Shown piece after piece: positions 690-64,000 of a stretch of DNA of 64,000 bases (positions are counted from its first letter, which is position 1; each line of letters opens with the position of its first letter). This DNA is from Cetorhinus maximus (lineage: Eukaryota), in assembly GCF_964194155.1 (NCBI RefSeq), contig NC_135914.1:7006001-7070000 (forward strand), in the 5' to 3' direction. A model generated the notes under the pieces. It did not search any database. It saw only the letters and a list, made by a program, of their open reading frames with translations, and was not told where the DNA came from. The translations under genes and the position numbers were made by a program.

Positions 690-2600
690 TCCATGTGTTC
701 AGCATCATGTGCATAAGAGATGAAGTTATGTGATATAATTAAAGAAATTAGCATAGAAAGGAAGGAGGTTCTAAGTGGTCCGGCAGGCTTAAAAGTAGAT
801 AAATCTCCAGACCTGTATGAAATGTATCCCAGGCTGTTGAGTGAAGCAAGGGAGGAGATAGCAGGGGCGCTGGCAATAATTTTCAATACCTCTCTGGACA
901 CAGAAGAGGTGCCAGAGGACTGGAGGACCACCAATGTGGTACCATGATTCAAGAAGGGAGGAAGGGATAACAGGGAACTACAGGCCAGTCAGCCTAACCT
1001 CAGTGGTGGGGAAACTATTGGAAGCAATTCTGAGGGACAGAATTAATCTACACTTGGAGAGGCAGGGATTAATCAAGGACAGTCAGCATGGTTTTGTTAA
1101 AGGGAGGTCATGTCTGACCAATTTGATTGAATTTTTCGAAGAGGTGACCAGGTGTGTAGATGAGGACAATGCATTTGACGTAGTCTACTTGGACTTCAGC
1201 AAGGCTTTTGATAAGGTCCCGCATGGGAGACTGGTAACGAAGGTAAGAGCCCATGGGATCCAAGGCAATTTGACAAATTGGATCCAGAATTGGCTGAGTG
1301 GCAGGAAGCAGAGGGTGATGGTCGAGGGGTGTTTTTGTGACTGGATGCCTGTGTCCAGTGGGGTTCCACAGGGATCGGTGTTAGGTCCCTTGCTGTTTGT
1401 GGTATATATAAACGATTTAGACTTGAATGTAGGAGGGTTGATCAGTGAGTTCACGGGTGACACGAAAATTGGTGGGGTGGTAAATAGTGAGGAGGATAGC
1501 CTTAGATTACAGGAGGATATAGACGGGCTGGTCAGATGGGCTGATTTGTGGCAAATGGAATTTAATCCGGATAAGTGTGAGGTGATGCACTGGGGCAGGA
1601 CAAACAAGGCACGGGAATACACGATGAATGGTAGGACCCTGGGAAGTACCAAGGATCAGAGGGACCTTGGTGTGCATGCCCACCAGTCCCTTAAGGTAGC
1701 AGGACAGGTAGATAAGGTGGTAAAGGTGGCATATGGGATACTTGCCTTTATTAGCCAAGGCATAGAATATAAGAGCAGGGAGGTTATGCTGGAACTGTAT
1801 AAAACACTGGTTAGGCCACAGCTAGAGTATTGTGTGCAGTTCTGGAATCCACATTATAGGAAGGATGTGATTGCACTAGAGAGTGCAGAGGAGATTTACC
1901 AGGATGTTAAAAACAAAAAGCTAAAAGCTACTGCAGATGCTGGAAATCCAAAACAAAAACAGAATTACCTGGAAAAACTCAGCAGGTCTGGCAGCATCGG
2001 TGGAGATATTTCACCTTTCTCCTAACTATACTCAGTTCTGCCGAAGGGTCATGAAGACTCGAAACGTTAACTGATTTCTTCTCCACCGATGCTGCCAGAC
2101 CTGCTGAGTTTTTCCAGGTAATTCTGTTTTTGTTTTACCAGGATGTTGCCTGGGCTGGAGAGTTTTAGTTATGAGGAGAGATTGGATGGACTGGGGTTAT
2201 TTTCCCTGGAGCAGAGAAGATTGACAGAGGGACATGATTGAGGTGTATAAAATTATATGGGGCATAGATAGGGTAGATAGGAAGGAACTTTTCCTCTTGG
2301 AGGAGGGATCAATAACCAGGGGGCATAGATTTAAGGTAAGGGGCAGGAGGTTTAGAGGGAATGTGAGGAAGAATTTTTTTACCCAGAGGGCGATGGGAAT
2401 CTGGAACTCTGCCTGAAAGGGTGGTAGAGGCAGAAACTCTCATAATATTTAAGAAGTATTTGGATGTGCACTTGCGATGCCACGGCATACAAGGCTATGG
2501 GCCTAGTGCTGGAAAATGGGATTATAATAGTTAGGTACTTGTTTGACTGGCGCAGACTCAATGGCCAAAGGGCCTTTTTCTCTGCTGTAGACCTCTATGA
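690..2600 (+). mobile_element. 5'-truncated CR1 LINE (RT region, frameshifted) with nested insertion at ~1909-2136
   Basis: [49 protein letters not shown], degenerate FADD, YKTLVRPQLEYC, TRGHRFK, NFFTQR. Confidence 0.93.
1909..2136. mobile_element. Short palindromic (Penelope-like) insertion within CR1
   Basis: Perfect ~57-bp inverted arms (1950-2006 / 2080-2136), flanked by duplicated tttaccaggatgtt (1895-1908, 2134-2147). The family call is an inference. Confidence 0.75.
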
Positions 2601-3615
2601 CTCTGAGGTTCTAATCTCTTGGGTAACAGTTTGTGCTTCTTATTTTTAAATAACTATATTACTGAGCTGTACTTGAATTTGCATATTGAACTTGGTCACC
2701 GTACTTTCAAGTGCACACTGCTTTGTAAGTTGATTAGTACTTGGAGGTGCCTACACTTAGGATCCTGATACAGTTCTTCACCCCGGGAATGAGGGGATAA
2801 TATTTATCAGGATCATTCCTTGGCAAGGCACAATGTTCTCAGAAGAGCAATAGTGTTGGCAGTCTTGGGTGTGTGATAGTAATTGGACAGGGTTGTACCC
2901 TCTGGGAGGCTTGGGGAAGAATGCAGGGGATCTTGTTGGCAACAGGCCTTTGCTTGTGCTCTTTGTTCCAGTGATTTGGTACATCAGTGTGGACTGGCAA
3001 AGAGTGAAAATGAAACGTGAAATGGCTTAATGGGTTCTAAAATAAACAGCCACCTGTTTTGCACGTGTAAACTGCAGTAAGTTTGAGAAGTTATGTGGAG
3101 TTTTAATTTAGGAAACTAGGATGATTAAAAGTATCTTCTGAATCCAAATGGAAAATGGCCCGCAACTTGTGCTCATTCCTCAGTCGCACCGGCTGTTATT
3201 TCAGCGCATCTCAATCATCTTTCACACACCAACAGTTGCTTGGAAAAGGAACCATTTATGTGCAGCAGGGCTCTTATTTTGACTATATTCTCAGTCAAGT
3301 GTAAAGACACTTGTTTGAGTGAGTTATATGTTTAGCAGGGTGTGCATATATTTGCAGGGTATTGAATTGGTTTGTTTGCTCTGCCTTGGTTTAAGAGGGA
3401 CTGTGTGCAAAGGGAAAATCCAGGATCTTAATATAGCTCAGCCCTGGAAGATGGAAATTGAAACTGCAAAATAAAAATGCTGAACTAAGGAAACCTCTTC
3501 TCCATTGGGAACCAGACTAAACAACACTTTTTCTGGGGTTTTTTTCTGTATTCTTCAACAGAGACCTGGTGTAACTTTCAACAGATTGACTTGTTGCTTG
3601 GCAGTATGGAACTTG

Positions 3616-4097
3616 AATATTGCTGAAAAGAGACATGTTGCTGAAGCTTTTTGTCTTGCACTCATCAGGACAAATGCAACAATTTCAAATGATCACAGCA
3701 ATTTATACTACAGGAGAAAAATGAGCTGATTGGTTGGCAAGTCCTCTTCGATTGGACGAGACGTTGCCATGGAGAAAGTAATGGGGAACTATGGGCTCCC
3801 CAAGCTCCTGGATAATTCGAAAAGACGCAAGGCTTGAACATATTCCTTTTCTTTGCTGAGAACGGGATCCCTACATATGAATGTATGTCACTTCTAGCAA
3901 ACAGGGACCCATTGTCCATGGCCACATTGATTAGCTGAGGTGTTACAATGGAGAAAGCAGGGTCGACTTGTCAATCAATCAGCTCCTTTTTTCTCCTGTA
4001 GTGTAAACTGTTGTGATTGTTGAAATTTGGCATTCTGATGTCCTGATGCGTAAAAGACAAAAGGTTTCGGCAACATGCCTCTCTTTACATCAATATT
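3616..4097. mobile_element. Palindromic element with ~130-bp imperfect inverted arms (Penelope-like or MITE)
   Basis: aatattgctgaaaagagacatgttgctgaagc...gagctgattggttggcaagtc pairs with gacttgtcaatcaatcagctc...cggcaacatgcctctctttacatcaatatt. Confidence 0.7.
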
Positions 4098-6049
4098 TCA
4101 GATTGACTTCAGGTGTCTTTCATTTGACAATGAGATTTACATAGAAAAATTTCAATCATGTTGCTTTATTGTAAAAGCACTGCTCATATGTAGGGTTTGA
4201 TGTAGAATCATTGATTTTATTCTCTCTCTCTTTGTTCCACGCCCCAAAGCCACTGTGTCCTACACAGCAGCACAGTTTTAAATTTGATTCTCTAATTTCT
4301 GCTGATTTGGCTGATGTCAGTGGTGAAGGCACATTGCATTGCTCTGAGTTAGGGAGTGGGGTGGGGGGGGGTGGAAATATCTTTATATGACTTAACCTGC
4401 ATGCCAAAGGTGGCCCCTTTGGGTGCGTAGCAGCAGTGCTCATTGCTGATCATTTTCACCGAAGCTTTAACTTACAACTTAATATGCAAAATCATTTGAG
4501 AAAATCATGAACATATATATCTATCCCACTGTCCCTGGCTCATTTCACAGGTGTCCCCAAGCCCCACACAATTCCTCAGCCAAGAGAGTGGATAGGCTGC
4601 TTCTTCCTACTCGGCACCCCACTCATGTGCGAGGTACAAACCTGTGGGTTTAAAACCTGCATTGCACCCCATCCATGCTACCTTGGCTAGCTTTGTTCAG
4701 AGTAATATTACTGCTATAGCAAAACACAGCAAAACAAAGTTGATGCTCTTAATTCATCCTGTCAAACTGCTTTCATGCCACCAGTGACAGACCTGTAACC
4801 ACCACACTTATTCACCCTAATATAGAACACAAATCATACTTGCCAAGCACCGACCACTCTTGTTTAGAAGCCTCAAGTCTAATTGTACTGCTGAATATTT
4901 TTCAAGCTCAAGTGGATATTGTGCAAGTATCACACACCCATCATACTGGCTGTAACACCACAAAATGTGAAGGATAACGGAACCCTGCAGTTGATCTGAG
5001 TTTGGACCACAAGATTAGAGTCTGCCTGTCCACACTTGCCTGTCCACTTATCGTATGTTCAATCACTATGTATATAAAAATCACTGAAATTTAATCTGTA
5101 GTTGATGACCAACGTTGTTGTTAATGTATAGTATCCAGCCTCCAGTTTCTGGATTTAATTTTTGTGTTTGCTGTTATCCATAAATATTTTAAATGTGGAG
5201 CTTTCAAGCCCAAACGGGGAGTGCCAAGGGGCCTCCACCACTAACTAGTTATTGAGGCAACCTTTTCTGGGTGCCCAGGACTATTCCCATCTTGGAGAAA
5301 AATCAACATGTGCTATAACACAGCTTCTTTGTCAGTTTCCAACACTTTCCTCCCTAAAACATAGAACTTGCAACACAGGTACTTGGCCTGTGCTGGCTTA
5401 TGCTCCACACCTGTCTCCTTTTATATCATTTATTTCATCATCAAATGAACATATCCTTCTATTCTTTTCTCCTCCATGTACTTACTGAGCTTATCCTTAA
5501 ATTGGAGTGTTTTAAAATAATTCTGAATCCATTACTGAATTTATCCAAAATCTGAACTTGTCAACCTCTGTGCCTTTTTGCTCAATGTTCCACTTTTTCG
5601 TGCCTTTCCCAGCACATGTCTCATCCAGCTATACTTAATGGAGTCTAGAACATCTCTGCAATACTGCATCCTCCGCAAAAGAAACCTGTAACCCAGTTGT
5701 TCTTCAAAAGAAAATTCCAATTAACTAGCTTTTGTAGCAAAGATTAACAAATCTTTGTGCAAGAGTTGCCCCAAATCTTTGTGTTTAGATTTGATTGTCT
5801 TATCTTCCATAAAATGTTGAAATAAAAACCCCACAGAAAACAAGAACTGTTGTCCATTTTTGTGTTGGTCAATTCAGCAGCTTGACACAAAGACTTGTCA
5901 CCTTTTTGGGCCTCCAAACCAAGCCGCTGGGATGCTCACTGGTAGAGTTTCTCTTTGTCTATAATGTGAACTGCATTCTCTCTCCCCAGAGGAACACACC
6001 TCTGGTATATTGTCATTGGACACTGTACAGAAAGCAAGACGTGCCTTTC

Positions 6050-6708
6050 TTTATGCATTCACGGGATGTGGGCTTTGCTGGCTGGGCCAGCATTTATTGC
6101 CCATCTCTAATTGCCCTTGTGAAGGTGGTGGTGAGCTGCCTTCTTGAACCGCTGTAGTCCCTGTGGTGTAGGTACACCCACAGTGCTGTTAGGAAGGGAG
6201 TTCCAAGATTTTGACCCAACAACAGTGAAGGAACGGTGATATATTTCCAAGTCAGGATGGTGAGTGGCTTGGAGGGAAACTTCTAGGTGGTGATATTCCC
6301 ATCTGTCTTTGCCCTTCTCCTTCTAGGTGGTAGCGGTCATGGGTTTGGAAGGTGCTGTCTAAGGAGCCTTGGTGAATTCCTGCAGTGCATCTTGTAGATG
6401 GTACACACTGCTGCGACTGTGTGTCGGTGGTGGAGGGAGTGGATGTGATGCCAATCAAGCGGGCTGCTTTGTCCTGGATGGTGTTGAGCTTCTTGAGTGT
6501 TGTGGGAGCTGCACTCCTCCAGGCAAGTGGGGAGTATCCCATCACACTCCTGACTTGTGCCTTGTACATGGTGAACAGACTTTGGGGAGTCAGGAGGTGA
6601 GTTACTCACCACAGGATCCCTAGCCTCTGACCTGCTCTTGCAGCCACAGTATTTATATGTCTAGACCAGTTCTGTTTTTGGTCCATGGTAACCCCCAGGA
6701 TGTTGATT
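6050..6708 (-). mobile_element. L2/CR1-group LINE 3' fragment
   Basis: YKAQVRSVMGYSPLAW...LKKLNTIQDKAARLIG, plus a 3' tail shared with several SINE copies. Confidence 0.8.
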
Positions 6709-7311
6709 TCCATACAGTGCCATTCACGACTTCGGGAAGTTCCAAAGCGTTTTACGGCCGTTGAACCGTTGTCAATGGGAATATTGGGAACCTGGGAGCT
6801 GCTCGGTGCCTTTACGTCTCCAGATTTTTTTTTTCAATCCTGTTCCGTAGGATCAATGTAGCTCATTGCCCTTTAAGGTTTGGCATTGGTTGCTAGTCTC
6901 TAGCGCTTTGATATGCTGTGCGGAGAGGCAATGCTAGCCAGTTTGCTTCAATGGATCCAGTGGCTCTAACTTGGCGACAATTTACAGAACCTTTTATCTT
7001 GATGTTCTCAGAACAGTGCGGCCGATCGGACAGAGCTGCATGTGCATTGCACACCGGCACTCGGAATTCCGTCCACCGCCAGCGATAGGTCCCTAGCTGT
7101 GGTATTCTGCCGCTAAAATTGTTCTGCCAAGTTTGGAGAGAGCGAGAAGACAATTCTGTGCCTGGGTGTTTTCAAGGAAACCCAGAAAATTTTGAGCAGC
7201 CACCGTTACACTTCACTGCCACCCCAGTGACGGGCGTAAGATAGATGTAGCAAGTTGCGTGGAAGCGACCAACTTCTAGAACTACTAATGTTGCAGAGCG
7301 GTAGTTTTTTT

Positions 7312-7352
7312 TGACGAAACGAAAGTGAAACTTGTCACGGTTCCCTATAAAA
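7312..7352 (+). promoter_or_regulatory. Candidate interferon-inducible ADAR promoter core: tandem ISRE/IRF-E plus TATA box
   Basis: TGACGAAACGAAAGTGAAACT (7312-7332) followed by TATAAAA (7346-7352), in a locally CpG-enriched stretch ~2.9 kb upstream of the exon 2 acceptor. Confidence 0.7.
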
Positions 7353-10297
7353 TGGTTTTGCCAGCAGGAGAGGTGGAGCCTCTTAAATCACATAACCAGT
7401 GTATGATCAGGCCCTGTAAAACTCCCCTCGGGTTAGGGATGGGCAAGTCACTTCCCATTACCAGGCAGTGCGGAGCGGAATCAAAACTGAAACTGGGGCC
7501 TAGTTGAAGGGACTGTCGAAGGCAGTATCTGCAGCTAACTCTGCTTGAAATCAAGTAGGATTCTTGTGGCAAAAACTGTGCCATTTAGTCTTTGTGACTG
7601 ATCAATATAAAGATAAGTAACTGTTAGTAAGAGATCTGCCTGTATGTGACTTGTTTTTATGTAGAGTGAACTGTGGGATTCCAGAAGTGAATGCCCTTTC
7701 CTAGGGATCAAGTTAGTTTGAAATCTTGGTGTCCTGTGCCAAAACAATTGGCTAAATTTTAGACTCCCAATGCCAATTCACACGTGCCCCAAAGTTTCAG
7801 ATAGAGATTCATCTGACTTTCATTGACTAGGAAGCTTCAAGCCAGTTCATTTCCAGCAACGCCGTGACAGGGAGACTCGAGGCTGAAACTGCTGCTCCAA
7901 ACTACAGACCCTGTCAGGGCTTCCCCCTCTGCTTAAAGGTGGTGCTGTTCCAGGAGTGTGTTTAACCACAGGTACTTTATGGTGAAGCTTGTTCATTTGT
8001 GCTGTGACTTAAAATTCTAAGCATTTCATTCAGCTGGTTCCCTTCTGCGGAGCAGTTTATCCCAGCTTTGTTTTGCTAAATATCTGATGATCTAATTATC
8101 TGCGCTTGCTCACTGGTGTGTGTTGTTGGTACCAATACACAAGCTGTTTTTATACCGTTGTGTTGGTGTTGGCTCTTGGCATGCAGTCTTTGCGCAGCCA
8201 GTGATAGTAAAGTAAATATGCCAGGAACAGGAGGCTGGAAGGTCTATTTTTTACCAGGTCTTCTGTCTGTTGGCCTTAGAGAATTGCATAGAAAATACAA
8301 TGCAACAGACCATTTGGCCCAACTGATCTATGCTGGTGTTAATACTCCACATGAGCCGGCTTCCACCCCATTTTATCTCATTCAATCTGTACATCTTTCT
8401 ATTCTTTTCTCCCTCACGTGCTTCCTCTTAAATACATCTCTACTGTTACCTCAGCTGTGAATTTCACATTAGGGATGGGCAATAAATGCTGGCCTAGCCA
8501 GCGACCCCCACATCCTGTAAATGAATTTTAAAAATTCTCCCCACTCTCTGGGGAAAGGAGTTCCTTCTGAATTCCCTATTGGATCTATTAGTGACTGTCT
8601 TACATGTAAAGCCCTCAGTTTTGGCCTCACCTCACCACCTCGCTTTTCCTCCCACCTCTCCCCCCAGGTAGTGTCCAGTGACTGTACTAGCTGACTGTAC
8701 AAGGCTCACACAGATGGCATCAGTATGACATTGCAGCAATATACAAGTAGGTTCAGCATAGATCCACAGCAATGTGAGTGATTCTTAACTGCCCTCTGAA
8801 AAGGCTGAGCAAGCCATTCAGTTATTAAGAGGGTGGTTCATCACCACCACCACCTTCTCAAGGGCAATTAATGATGGGCAGTAAATTCTGGACTTGCCTT
8901 TGCCCGCATCCTATGGATGAATTTTTCTTTTAAATGTGTAATGGAATAACAAACAGCCTGTGGAGTGGCTGGTTCCAAAATATTTGACCCAGGGAATATT
9001 GGAGAGGAGTTAACAAAATTATTTTTATATTTAAAAATAAAATTTAATTACAGAATAAGTTTCCTTTCCAAGTTCTTAATGCCTTGCAGTCTCCCCTTGA
9101 TTTCTGTAAGCCAAGTCCAGTTCCATCAGAATTAGTGTTTGTGATGTGATGGAACTGAGGTGCATGTTCTTGTCCAGCTGAAACTTGACCCCACTTCTTA
9201 CCCCATCACCACTTCCAGGTTACCTGACCTGAAGGAATGTGGATCTTGGCAGAGATCGTGTTGTCTTCATTGCTTTCCATAGTGCTGTTTCTAGAATTTT
9301 AATTGTTTTGTTCTCTGGAGGGATATGGAGATCAGTAATTGAAGCAGTAGGTTTCAATACATTTTCTTAATTAAAATATAATTGTTCAGCAGACAACTTG
9401 CAGGAATCCTCATTCTCCACAATCTCCCAGCCCTAAGTTACTCTCCTTTTCCTGCCTCTGCCTCTTCCCTAACAGAATGTAATGCTCACTACCATGTTGA
9501 TTGGTTGATGGCTCAGCACAGATACACTTCGGGAGAACCTGAATACCTGCACGGGGGCGAAAGTAATAGGAGGATATGTTGATGGAGTGAGATGCAGGAG
9601 GAGATTGATGTGGAATGTAAACCCTTAGCATAGGCCTCTTGGGCGGAATGGCTGTAAAATTGTGTGTGTGTGTAATAGGGTTGTGAGCATGCTAAAAAAA
9701 AATACTAGCAGTTTTCACCGAATCTTTGCCTTGTGCAAATTAATCAGAGATCAGCACATCAGGGAGGCACTTAACAGCTTATACCGGCAATTTCATACAT
9801 AGAATTATATAGAAAGCAAGCTACCTGGTCCAACCAGTCCATGTTGTTTATTCCCCTCATGAAATATTTGTACAATGTGCTGTGAATGGCTAAGTTCAGT
9901 ACTGCTGATACCACCACATTAAGACAATAAACCCTGGGGTTCAGTAGCACCCTGGGCCTGAATTGCATTGAGAGCTATGGATGGATGCAGCACAAAACAT
10001 AGACACACCCTCTCACTGCAAAAATGTGTGATTGCACTTGTACTTAGCCCAAATGGCTGTTCTGCCTGACCATCCCAGCTCGTGAATGTTGACAGGTATC
10101 ATAACCCATCCTGTCATCACTCCAAAGCCCTCACGCTAATTTTCCAGCAAGAGTCACTGGGTGGCCTTCAGGATAGGGAACCCTAGCTTATTTTATGCTG
10201 TAGATCTATTCTGTGTCCGTAATGTTGATTTTCTTTTTTTTTTAAAGGTGTATTCAAGTGATTCGATCAATTGAACCAAGATTCTGGTTCCATCTGC

Positions 10298-10350
10298 ATG
10301 CCCTTTTGTGTGTTGACAAAGGCAAACCCCACTGCTCTTATTAAAGAGCT

Positions 10351-10354
<4 letters not shown>
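10298..10354 (+). other. 18-codon uORF (MPFCVLTKANPTALIKEL*) whose TGA overlaps the ADAR start codon (ATGA)
   Basis: ATG 10298-10300 is open to TGA 10352-10354, downstream of the exon 2 acceptor. Translation is unproven. Confidence 0.6.
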
Positions 10355-42103
<31,749 letters not shown>

Positions 42104-49585: not shown

Positions 49586-57153
<7,568 letters not shown>

Positions 57154-61580: not shown

Positions 61581-61871
61581 GACCCCATCATCTTCCCGCC
61601 AGAGCAGGACCTCTCGTTAGTTGTGTCTTTCCACAACCATCATCTATCCTCTCACACGCTCAGGTTTGGGGCAAATGTGATTTTTACTCAGTTGGAGGGT
61701 GAGTCTCCGTTGGATGCTGCATTTCTGAAACTGAGACACTGGCTCTGCAAGCAACATCATTGACCATTGCTGAGCCCAGTGCTCAGTGGGTTACTCTCTC
61801 ACCACTGAGCCAAAATGTCATGGCTTCAAATCCCACTCCATAAACAATTGAGGCTGACGCGACAAGTGCCG

Positions 61872-64000
61872 CACTGAGGGAGTGCCGCACTGTCGGAGGG
61901 TCAGTGCTGAGGTAGCGCCGCACTGTCGGAGGGTCAGTACTGAGGGAGCGCCGCACTGTCGGAGGGTCAGTACTGAGGGAGCGCTGCACTGTGCAAGGAT
62001 CAGTACTGAGGGAGTGCCGCACTGTCGCAGGGTCAGTACTGAGGGAGCGCCGCACTGTAGGAGGGTCAGTACTGAGCAGGTGCTGTACTGTCGGAGTGTC
62101 AGTACTGAGGGAGTGCCACACTGTCGGAGAGTCAGTACTGAGGGAGTGCTGCACTGTGGCAGGGTCAGTCCTGAGGGAGTGCCGCACTGTCAGAGGGTCA
62201 GTACTGAGGGAGTGCCGCACTGTCAGAGGGTCAGTACTGAGGCAGTACTGCACTGTCGGAGGGTCAGTACTGAGGGAGCACCGCATGGGCAGAGGGTCAC
62301 CTCTGAGGGAACGCCGCACTGTCAAGAGAGTCAGTACTGAGGGAGTGCCGCACTGTCAGAGGGTCAGTACTGAGGGACTGCCATACTGTCAAAGGATCAA
62401 TACTGAGGGAGCACCGCACTGTCAGATGGTCAATGCTGAGGGAGGGCTGCACTGTCAAGAGAATCACTACTGAGGGAGTGCTGCACTGTCGGAGGGTCAG
62501 TACTGAGGGGGCCCCGCACTGTCGGAGGATCAGTACTGAGGGAGCGCCGCACTGTCGGAGGGTCAGTACTGAGGGAGCGCTGCACTGTGCGAGGGTGAGT
62601 ACTGAGGGAGTGCCGCACTGTCGGAGGGTCAGTACTGAGGGAGTGCCGCACTGTAGGAGGGTCAGTACTGAGCAGGTGCCGTACTGTCGGAGTGTCAGTA
62701 CTGAGGGAGTGCCGCACTGTCAGAGGGTCAGTGCTGAGGGAGCACCGCACTGTCGGAGGGTCAGTACTGAGGGAGTGCCGCACTGTCGGAGGGTCAGTAC
62801 TGAGGCAATACTGCACTGTCGGAGGGTCAGTACTGAGGGAGCACCGCATGGGCAGAGGGTCACCTCTGAGGGAACGCCGCACTGTCAAGAGAGTCAGTAC
62901 TGAGTGCTGCACTGTCAGAGGGTCAGTACTGAGGGACTGCCATACTGTCAAAGGATCAATACTGAGGGAGCACCGCACTGTCAGATGGTCAATGCTGAGG
63001 GAGGGCTGCACTGTCAAGAGAATCACTACTGAGGGAGCGCCGCACTGTCGGAGGGTCAGTACTGAGGGGGCCCCGCACTGTCGGAGGGTCAGTACTGAGG
63101 GAGCGCCGCACTGTCGGAGGGTCAGTACTGAGGGAGCGCTGCACTATGCGAGGGTGAGTACTGAGGGAGTGCCGCACTGTCGGAGGGTCAGTACTGAGGG
63201 AGTGCCGCACTGTAGGAGGGTCAGTACTGAGCAGGTGCCGTACTGTCGGAGTGTCAGTACTGAGGGAGTGCTGCACTGTCAGAGGGTCAGTGCTGAGGGA
63301 GCACCGCACTGTCGGAGGGTCAGTACTGAGGGAGTGCCGCACTGTCGGAGGGTCAGTACTGAGGCAGTACTGCACTGTCGGAGGGTCAGTACTGAGGGAG
63401 CACCGCATGGGCAGAGGGTCACCTCTGAGGGAACGCCGCACTGTCAAGAGAGTCAGTACTGAGTGCTGCACTGTCAGAGGGTCAGTACTGAGGGACTGCC
63501 ATACTGTCACAGGATCAATACTGAGGGAGCACCGCACTGTCAGATGGTCAATGCTGAGGGAGGGCTGTACTGTCAAGAGAATCACTACTGAGGGAGCGCC
63601 GCACTGTCGGAGGGTCAGTACTGAGGGAGTGCTGCACTGTCGGAGTCTCAGTACTGAGGGACCGCTGTGCTGTCAGATGTTCAGTACTGAGGCAGTGCCG
63701 GACTGTCAGAGGGTCATTTCTGAGGGAGCACCGCACTGTCATAGGGTCAGTACTGAGAGAGTGCCGCACAGTCGGAGGATCGGTACTGAGGGAGTGCTGC
63801 AGTATCGGAGGGTCAGTACTGAGGGAGCGCCGCACTGTCATAGGGTCAATACTGAGGGAGTGCCGCACTGTCGGAGGGTCAGTGCTGAGGGAGCGCCGCA
63901 CTGTCGGAGGCTCAATGCTGAGGGAGCGCCACACTGTCGGAGGGTCAGTGCTGAGGGAGCGCCGCACTGTCGGAGGGTCAGTACTGAGGGAGAGCCGCAC
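61872..64000 (+). repeat. 33-bp satellite with a ~559-bp higher-order repeat, runs off the window end
   Basis: gtactgagggagtgccgcactgtcggagggtca units. Identical variant blocks recur at 62430, 62989 and 63548. Confidence 0.96.

What the first reader, a model, noticed from the sequence alone, without database searches (positions are those of the whole stretch)
7171..7400. Candidate interferon-inducible ADAR1 promoter (tandem ISRE + TATA) in a probable cartilaginous fish
Seen: TGACGAAACGAAAGTGAAACT (three GAAA cores at 7316-7332, overlapped by a TGACG half-site), TATAAAA 13 nt later, and a GAS-like TTCAAGGAA at 7171-7179. These lie in a locally CpG-enriched stretch ~2.9 kb before exon 2. Known: mammalian ADAR1 p150 is driven by an ISRE promoter (exon 1A), whose core I recall as GAAACGAAAG. 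Inference: this is the orthologous promoter, which would place interferon control of ADAR1 at the base of jawed vertebrates. The first-exon donor cannot be determined by eye.
Basis: partly seen in the sequence, partly recalled or inferred. Interest (0 to 1): 0.75.

Follow-up and report, generated by a model that had tools for sequence, protein, structure and literature searches.

The report
Shark ADAR1 interferon-type promoter
This stretch of shark DNA is the start region of the RNA-editing gene ADAR1, with a textbook interferon-response motif just before the point where spliced transcripts of a related shark begin; interferon likely switches it on, as in mammals and bony fish, but here it would raise the amount of the full-length enzyme rather than choose between its long and short forms.

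Summary
Observation confirmed. The triple-GAAA element (7316-7332) and TATAAAA (7346) lie in a CpG-rich patch upstream of ADAR1 in a lamniform-like shark. Spliced contigs of a close relative, from two studies, begin at 7361 and 7373 and splice 7971 to 10248, giving a 599-nt non-coding first exon. The element's exact 15-mer occurs 11 times in the 4-Gb genome; 5 of the 10 other sites lie upstream of MOV10, IFI44-like (two), PARP12-like and IFI35. Viperin has a near-identical element. A rodent p150 primer shares 14 bases with it. IRF/ISGF3 control is therefore likely, but induction was not tested. Difference from mammals: Met1 lies in exon 2 behind an in-frame stop, and a second relative's transcript reaches the whole of exon 2 through another 5' end, so promoter choice would set dose, not p150 versus p110. 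A p110-like Met before Z-beta is present in 11 of 11 sharks and rays. The GAS and TGACG motifs are at chance frequency. Descent from the same promoter as mammalian PiA is plausible, not shown. ADAR1 is already a known ancestral ISG of bony vertebrates, and this scan noted a like promoter in a bamboo shark. New member of a known kind.

The parts
6701..7400 (.). CpG-enriched promoter patch (o/e 0.69-0.79 in 400-nt windows at 6801-7400; window median 0.31), beginning just after a repeat
   Evidence: repeat-derived depth at 5796-6827
7171..7181 (+). GAS-like palindrome; chance-level as a pattern, but 11 bases are identical to the 5' part of a rodent Adar1 p150 primer, where it abuts the ISRE. Role uncertain
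7312..7316 (+). TGACG half-site overlapping the first GAAA; not above chance
7316..7332 (+). Triple-GAAA ISRE/IRF element (spacers 1 and 2 nt, ending GAAACT)
   Evidence: like elements at viperin, MOV10, IFI44-like, PARP12-like, IFI35
7346..7352 (+). TATA box
   Evidence: sequence; contig 5' ends 15 and 27 nt after its first base
7361..7373 (+). 5' ends of spliced contigs of organism A in two studies; likely transcription start zone (contigs cannot prove a start)
   Evidence: X1 record 7 ends at 7361, X2 record 21 at 7373, both at the record end; separate upstream contigs about 11-fold shallower (8.1 vs 93.6; 34.2 vs 367.8)
7373..7971 (+). Proximal non-coding first exon, 599 nt, six upstream ATGs, none able to extend the ADAR1 frame
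7972..10247 (+). Intron 1, GT..AG, 2276 nt
   Evidence: joint 7969>10246 (cut +2) in X1 and X2; only strong donor-pattern match between 7350 and 10247
10248..11855 (+). Exon 2: 5' leader, in-frame stop at 10342-10344, Met1 at 10351, Z-alpha, Met243 at 11077, Z-beta, start of dsRBD1
10298..10354 (+). Out-of-frame upstream ORF (18 codons, weak context) whose stop overlaps Met1
11077..11079 (+). Second in-frame ATG, strong context, just before Z-beta; candidate p110-like start
13903..42100 (+). Remaining ADAR1 coding exons (dsRBDs, deaminase)
   Evidence: tblastn of P0001

Best explanation
This is the proximal TATA promoter and non-coding first exon of shark ADAR1, and its triple-GAAA element likely binds IRF proteins or ISGF3 so that interferon would boost transcription from about 7361-7373, raising the amount of full-length, Z-alpha-bearing ADAR1 rather than switching isoform. 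Shown: the motifs, the CpG patch, the exon and its splice into 10248 in a close relative, Met1 in exon 2 behind an in-frame stop, and like elements upstream of five other ISG orthologues. Inferred: factor binding, induction, a second upstream first exon that supplies basal transcript (candidate CpG island 31.9 kb upstream of exon 2), and a p110-like protein made by leaky scanning to Met243 from either transcript.
For:: contigs of organism A in two studies start at 7361 and 7373 and skip 2276 nt GT..AG into exon 2; 7373 is 27 nt from the TATA start; element unique in the window (0.09 expected), CpG o/e 0.79; exact 15-mer at 11 sites genome-wide; of the 10 others, 5 lie upstream of ISG orthologues: MOV10 (ATG 206 nt away), IFI44-like (0.9 and 6.3 kb), PARP12-like CCCH and WWE exons (4.9 and 6.2 kb), IFI35 (11.6 kb). 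Viperin, chosen beforehand as a control, has a near-identical triple element about 160 nt before its ATG. Background: 0 of 15 looser ISRE+TATA sites had an ISG domain within 10-20 kb. The genome has IRF genes (20 matches) and a type I IFN cluster (49 matches). Rodent and human exon-1 primers share 14 and 10 bases with the element. Isoform logic: stop at 10342 before Met1; X6 contig of organism B covers all of exon 2 with 90 other letters in front and has no 7969>10246 joint; 11 of 11 chondrichthyan proteins have no Met between Met1 and a Met just before Z-beta; 2 ATGs between Met1 and Met243 against 10.2 expected, 14 against 12.3 downstream.
Against: No induction data and no raw reads; contigs cannot show a start, a strand or a level, and they come from relatives, not this species. 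The promoter is active in two samples of unknown treatment, which a constitutive tissue promoter also explains. The loose ISRE+TATA pattern is not enriched genome-wide (29 hits, 28 for the reversed control); the exact 15-mer is rarer than its reversed control (11 vs 53) and 5 of its 10 other sites have no recognisable gene within 10 kb. A viperin-type pattern sits mostly in one repeat family (18 of 30 loci shown) and 0 of 5 unique sites followed showed an ISG domain. The element misses the first base of a published fish ISRE consensus. STAT2_C found no match, an uninformative blank. The place of the other first exon is not established; the 90 letters were not seen.
Confidence: 0.7

Rival explanations
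1. A real promoter driven by basal or tissue-specific IRF binding (IRF1/IRF2/IRF8 type) or by IRF3/7 directly after virus sensing, with little dependence on the interferon receptor.
For: Contigs from this exon are deep in two samples not known to be stimulated; GAAA repeats are bound by IRFs as well as ISGF3 (PMC3688568, passages); the GAS is at chance frequency; STAT2 was not confirmed in the genome.
Against: The same element stands at viperin, MOV10, IFI44-like, PARP12-like and IFI35, genes classed as ISGs (10.1101/693333 passages for rsad2, ifi44, parp12, and IFI35 named as a human ISG; PMC11281336 passages for MOV10); fish promoters with ISREs respond to IFN in reporters.
Confidence: 0.17
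2. Full mammalian logic: this promoter makes p150 and the upstream promoter makes only p110, for instance by splicing to a site inside exon 2 beyond Met1.
For: A review passage mentions a shortened exon 2 with an alternate exon 1 for ADAR1 isoforms and exons 1A/1B in grass carp (PMC12666519, passages); contigs drop minor forms.
Against: The X6 contig with the other 5' end aligns from 10246 through all of exon 2; no polypyrimidine-AG acceptor was found in the first 840 nt of exon 2; Met1 is in exon 2.
Confidence: 0.07
3. The motif is a chance or repeat-derived ISRE look-alike beside an ordinary TATA promoter, with no regulatory role.
For: Loose pattern not enriched genome-wide; a repeat family carries a similar triple-GAAA motif; half of the exact sites have no gene nearby.
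Against: This site has no similarity to that repeat family (0 neighbours); it lies 13 nt from the TATA of a gene whose mammalian and fish orthologues are ISGs; 14 bases match a rodent p150 exon-1 primer.
Confidence: 0.06

Closest known systems
Human and mouse ADAR1 interferon-inducible promoter PiA with exon 1A (PMC12925331, passages of section 4 and the figure 3 legend; PMC8118328, passages)
   Same: ISRE next to a first exon that splices to exon 2; a second first exon in the same gene; GAAA-C-GAAA-G core shared with published exon-1 primers (the papers do not label the primers as ISRE, that link is my inference); an internal Met before Z-beta; neighbours KCNN-type upstream and CHRNB2-type downstream (the human gene order is recalled).
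   Different: Mammalian exon 1A holds AUG1, so the promoter selects p150; here the first exon is non-coding (599 nt, six uATGs) and Met1 is in exon 2. A KCS-like/Sp element is not evident (no GC box in 6701-7400). The shark promoter has a TATA box; the mammalian one is TATA-less as I recall. The primers lie in transcribed sequence in mammals, whereas the shark element lies upstream of the contig starts.
Grass carp ADAR1 exons 1A/1B; grouper ADAR1-like; zebrafish adar as ancestral ISG (PMC12666519, PMC4337036, 10.1101/693333; passages only; the original grass carp promoter paper was not read)
   Same: Non-mammalian ADAR1 with alternative first exons and induction by poly(I:C) or virus.
   Different: Bony fish; induction was measured there and is not measured here. 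Position of the start codon relative to the first exons was not checked for teleosts.
Start-proximal ISRE + TATA promoters of ISGs, such as IFIT genes (PMC3688568, passages)
   Same: Two or three GAAA cores within 200 bp of a TATA box.
   Different: One base off the consensus used in that paper.

Membership tests
ISRE-driven ISG promoter | Tandem GAAA-N1-2-GAAA element close to the start | tested here: met
   7316-7332, 29-41 nt before the contig 5' ends; one base off the PMC3688568 consensus
ISRE-driven ISG promoter | Transcription starts just downstream and splices into the gene | tested here: met
   Spliced contigs from 7361/7373 in organism A, two studies; contigs give only a weak hint of the exact start and come from a relative
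ISRE-driven ISG promoter | Same element at other ISGs of the genome | tested here: met
   Viperin; 5 of 10 other exact 15-mer sites at four ISG orthologues
ISRE-driven ISG promoter | Induced by type I IFN in an ISRE-dependent way | not testable with these tools
   No treated samples identifiable and only contigs served
ISRE-driven ISG promoter | ISGF3 components (STAT1, STAT2, IRF9) present | tested here: inconclusive
   IRF family and type I IFN genes present; IRF9 not identified; STAT2_C search rang nowhere, controls included
Mammalian ADAR1 PiA / exon 1A | ISRE at an alternative first exon of ADAR1 | tested here: met
Mammalian ADAR1 PiA / exon 1A | First exon carries the p150 start codon | tested here: not met
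   In-frame stop 10342-10344 precedes Met1 at 10351 in exon 2; this Met aligns with residue 1 of 10 named shark and ray proteins
Mammalian ADAR1 PiA / exon 1A | Adjacent KCS-like (Sp-binding) element | tested here: inconclusive
   No GC box in 6701-7400; the KCS sequence itself was not available from a call
Mammalian ADAR1 PiA / exon 1A | Separate constitutive promoter with exon 1B/1C | tested here: inconclusive
   90 unplaced letters 5' of exon 2 in X6; candidate CpG island and single strong donor 31.9 kb upstream; not mapped with reads
Mammalian ADAR1 PiA / exon 1A | Common descent (alignable promoter across jawed vertebrates) | not testable with these tools
   No other vertebrate genome is held; short motif identity is not diagnostic because the same 15-mer occurs at unrelated ISGs

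The most novel reading that the evidence does not exclude
The ancestral jawed-vertebrate ADAR1 had two promoters, one interferon-driven, both feeding a shared exon 2 that holds the start codon; interferon set only the dose, and the long/short ratio was fixed by leaky scanning across an ATG-poor stretch to a Met before Z-beta. Mammals later coupled p150 to interferon by placing AUG1 in exon 1A. Sharks would then express Z-alpha-bearing ADAR1 constitutively.
Probability: 0.4. Interest if true: 0.6.

Novelty: new member of a known kind. Interest (0 to 1): 0.43.

Why it matters
ADAR1 is the brake that keeps self double-stranded RNA from firing the interferon system. An ISRE promoter in a shark would extend the feedback loop (interferon induces its own brake) from bony vertebrates to the oldest lineage with type I interferon. 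The position of the start codon suggests that the well-known link between interferon and the p150 isoform is a later addition. The mapped first exon and junction (7971>10248) give a direct qPCR or RNA-seq test, and the genome scan yields five more candidate shark ISG promoters.

Tried and rejected
GAS and TGACG as independent evidence: at or below chance. Loose ISRE+TATA composite as a genome-wide ISG predictor: 29 hits at 22 distinct places vs 28 control hits; 15 places followed 10-20 kb downstream with 150 of 152 selected ORFs, no ISG domain, one ONECUT-type gene; six repeat-like places not followed. Viperin-derived pattern: 42 hits vs 29 control, 18 of 30 loci shown in one repeat family, 5 unique sites followed, no ISG domain. 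ORF screens were partial: 104 of 126 ORFs, 105 of 152, 88 of 88, each list being only the top-ranked frames per locus, so short exons can be missed. No cover of 7172-7515 in X6 and X10, and no listed contig over the element in any of the four runs, so motif conservation in relatives is open. Placing the other first exon with reads was not achieved. STAT2_C search uninformative. Internal acceptor in exon 2: none found. Literature: searches found no paper on a chondrichthyan ADAR1 promoter or its induction (library limited to open papers); the primary promoter papers asked for (PMC16382, PMC8000508, PMC3057271) are not held. Table I and supplements of 10.1101/693333 were not seen; adar's place among ancestral ISGs rests on section passages. 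Earlier-findings look-ups by place and by sequence returned nothing.

Full report
Observation. The triple element is the only one in the window (0.09 expected from shuffles) and the only one in 134 kb of unselected DNA. CpG o/e peaks at 0.79 in 7001-7400 against a median of 0.31. The GAS pattern (38 vs 40.8 expected) and TGACG (37 vs 47.8) carry no weight alone. Both GAAA pairs are preceded by C, one base off a consensus used for fish ISREs (PMC3688568, passages).

Gene and organism. The ORF from 10351 has two Z-alpha-family stretches and the 38-kb exon a deaminase domain. P0001 maps in 14 blocks from 10351 to 42100. The exon-2 protein is 95% identical to Carcharodon ADAR1 and 52-76% to nine other sharks and rays, so this is a lamniform-like shark. 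A nicotinic-receptor exon lies downstream on the minus strand and a KCNN-like last exon 42.6 kb upstream of the window (by eye), the human gene order as I recall it.

Is it a promoter? The run search listed 19 rows, none on record as RNA; 14 guessed-RNA runs of related organisms hold part of exon 2. I laid four. In organism A, in two studies, one long contig begins at 7361 (X1) or 7373 (X2), runs to 7971, skips 2276 nt with GT..AG ends and continues through exon 2. These ends are 15 and 27 nt from the first base of the TATA. Separate contigs upstream are about 11-fold shallower in both runs. The first exon is thus about 599 nt, with the donor at 7972, the only strong donor match in the interval. 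Limits: contigs cannot prove a start, strand or level, the animals are relatives (about 97% identical), no DNA run was laid as a control, and no listed contig covers the element itself.

A second 5' end. In organism B (X6) the 4403-nt contig covers all of exon 2 but has 90 letters in front that are not placed on 2700-13000, and it has no 7969>10246 joint (tables were cut, so this is likely, not certain). Low-depth contigs upstream of 7300 in X1 and X2 fit intronic RNA from a further promoter. A CpG island 31-33 kb upstream of exon 2 has a TATA-like run and one strong donor 31.9 kb from the acceptor. It is a candidate only; it was not mapped with reads.

Does the element mean interferon control? 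A loose ISRE+TATA pattern is not enriched in the genome (29 hits, 28 reversed), and none of 15 such places followed had an ISG domain nearby. The exact element is more telling. Viperin, picked in advance, has a near-identical triple element about 160 nt before its ATG, with a TATA-like run beside it (ATG placed by eye). The exact 15-mer occurs at 11 places in 4 Gb (reversed control 53). Of the 10 besides ADAR1, one lies 206 nt before the ATG of MOV10, two lie 0.9 and 6.3 kb before an IFI44-like gene, one 4.9-6.2 kb before PARP12-like CCCH and WWE exons (first exon not mapped), and one 11.6 kb before the first aligned codon of IFI35. The other five are CpG-poor (o/e 0.11-0.42) and show no gene in the frames screened. 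All five sites with o/e of 0.49 or more, ADAR1 included, are at ISG orthologues; that cut was drawn after the fact. A viperin-type pattern gave a weaker picture: 42 hits vs 29, 18 of 30 shown in one repeat family, and no ISG domain at 5 unique sites followed. The genome holds IRF genes (20 matches) and a type I IFN array (49 matches); STAT2 was not confirmed. I put IRF/ISGF3 responsiveness at about 0.8; it is inferred, not measured.

Comparison with mammals. The human and mouse PiA promoter has a 12-bp ISRE and a KCS-like element and drives exon 1A, which holds AUG1 of p150; exons 1B/1C lack an AUG and give p110 from exon 2 (PMC12925331, section 4 and figure 3 legend passages; PMC8118328, passages). 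Published exon-1 primers contain the recalled core: 10 bases of a human primer (PMC4105233, table passage) and 14 bases of a rodent p150 primer (PMC11281990, methods passage, a rat study) match 7316 onward, and the first 11 bases of the rodent primer match the shark GAS-like site at 7171. The papers do not call these ISRE or GAS. The likeness is striking but does not prove descent, because the same 15-mer stands at four unrelated ISGs in this genome.

The mechanistic difference. Exon 2 has an in-frame stop at 10342 before Met1 at 10351, so no first exon can add an N-terminus, and the transcript with the other 5' end keeps all of exon 2. Met1 aligns with residue 1 of all 10 named chondrichthyan proteins and of zebrafish Adar. 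In 11 of 11 chondrichthyan sequences the next Met lies at residue 236-261, just before Z-beta and near the tetrapod p110 start. Between Met1 and Met243 there are 2 ATGs in 723 nt against 10.2 expected, while the following 777 nt have 14 against 12.3. This fits leaky scanning to a p110-like start, which is described for mammalian exon-1A mRNA. The inferred model: the proximal promoter raises the dose of ADAR1 mRNA on infection, and the long/short ratio is set at translation. Six upstream ATGs in the first exon (10.5 expected) and a weak uORF overlapping Met1 may tune the output; untested.

Novelty. ADAR is listed among ancestral ISGs of zebrafish and human (10.1101/693333, passages); grass carp ADAR1 is induced by virus and poly(I:C) and has exons 1A/1B (PMC4337036 and PMC12666519, passages). 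Nine searches found no chondrichthyan ADAR1 promoter study in the open library. Verdict: a real and probably interferon-responsive promoter, a new member of a known kind, with a mapped first exon and a testable twist on isoform control. Interest 0.43.

Noticed in passing
G000:C26:33.92-34.31 Mb (L061-L068): 49 matches to the type I interferon family, nearly all one exon-sized piece each, in about 390 kb: a very large tandem IFN array, some copies with stops or short frames.
   Followed up: no
L086-L095, L099, L100, L103, L105-L107, L110, L112: A dispersed repeat family carries a triple-GAAA, ISRE-like motif (18 of 30 loci shown); a possible mobile source of IRF sites.
   Followed up: no
L119, L120, L121, L124, L125, L096: Candidate ISRE promoters of shark MOV10, IFI44-like (five GAAA cores at C18:11560037), PARP12-like, IFI35 and viperin.
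   Followed up: partly
L097 (C5:37.33 Mb), L098, L113-L115 (C22:7.95-8.19 Mb), L108: CpG-rich unique or small-family ISRE sites with no gene identified within 10 kb; the C22 sites form a related cluster, perhaps a tandem ISG family.
   Followed up: partly
L026 / L069-L070 (C27:17.62 Mb, minus): Four GAAA cores plus TATAAAA about 6 kb upstream of a CUT-homeodomain (ONECUT-type) gene.
   Followed up: partly
L032:7200-9300: CpG island with a retroelement remnant on its 5' side, a TATA-like run at about 8239 and a single strong donor at 8327; candidate constitutive ADAR1 promoter.
   Followed up: partly
window 51698-52861 minus; L034 (about 42.6 kb upstream of the window): Nicotinic receptor (CHRNB2-like) exon downstream and KCNN-like last exon upstream of ADAR1.
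   Followed up: partly
window 880-2600, 14228-15400, 29846-31120: CR1-type LINE fragments with reverse transcriptase frames (RVT_1 at 880-2022; the others by eye).
   Followed up: no
window 18600-19630, 54730-56650, 61780-63670: Long minisatellite-like tandem arrays giving repetitive open frames.
   Followed up: no
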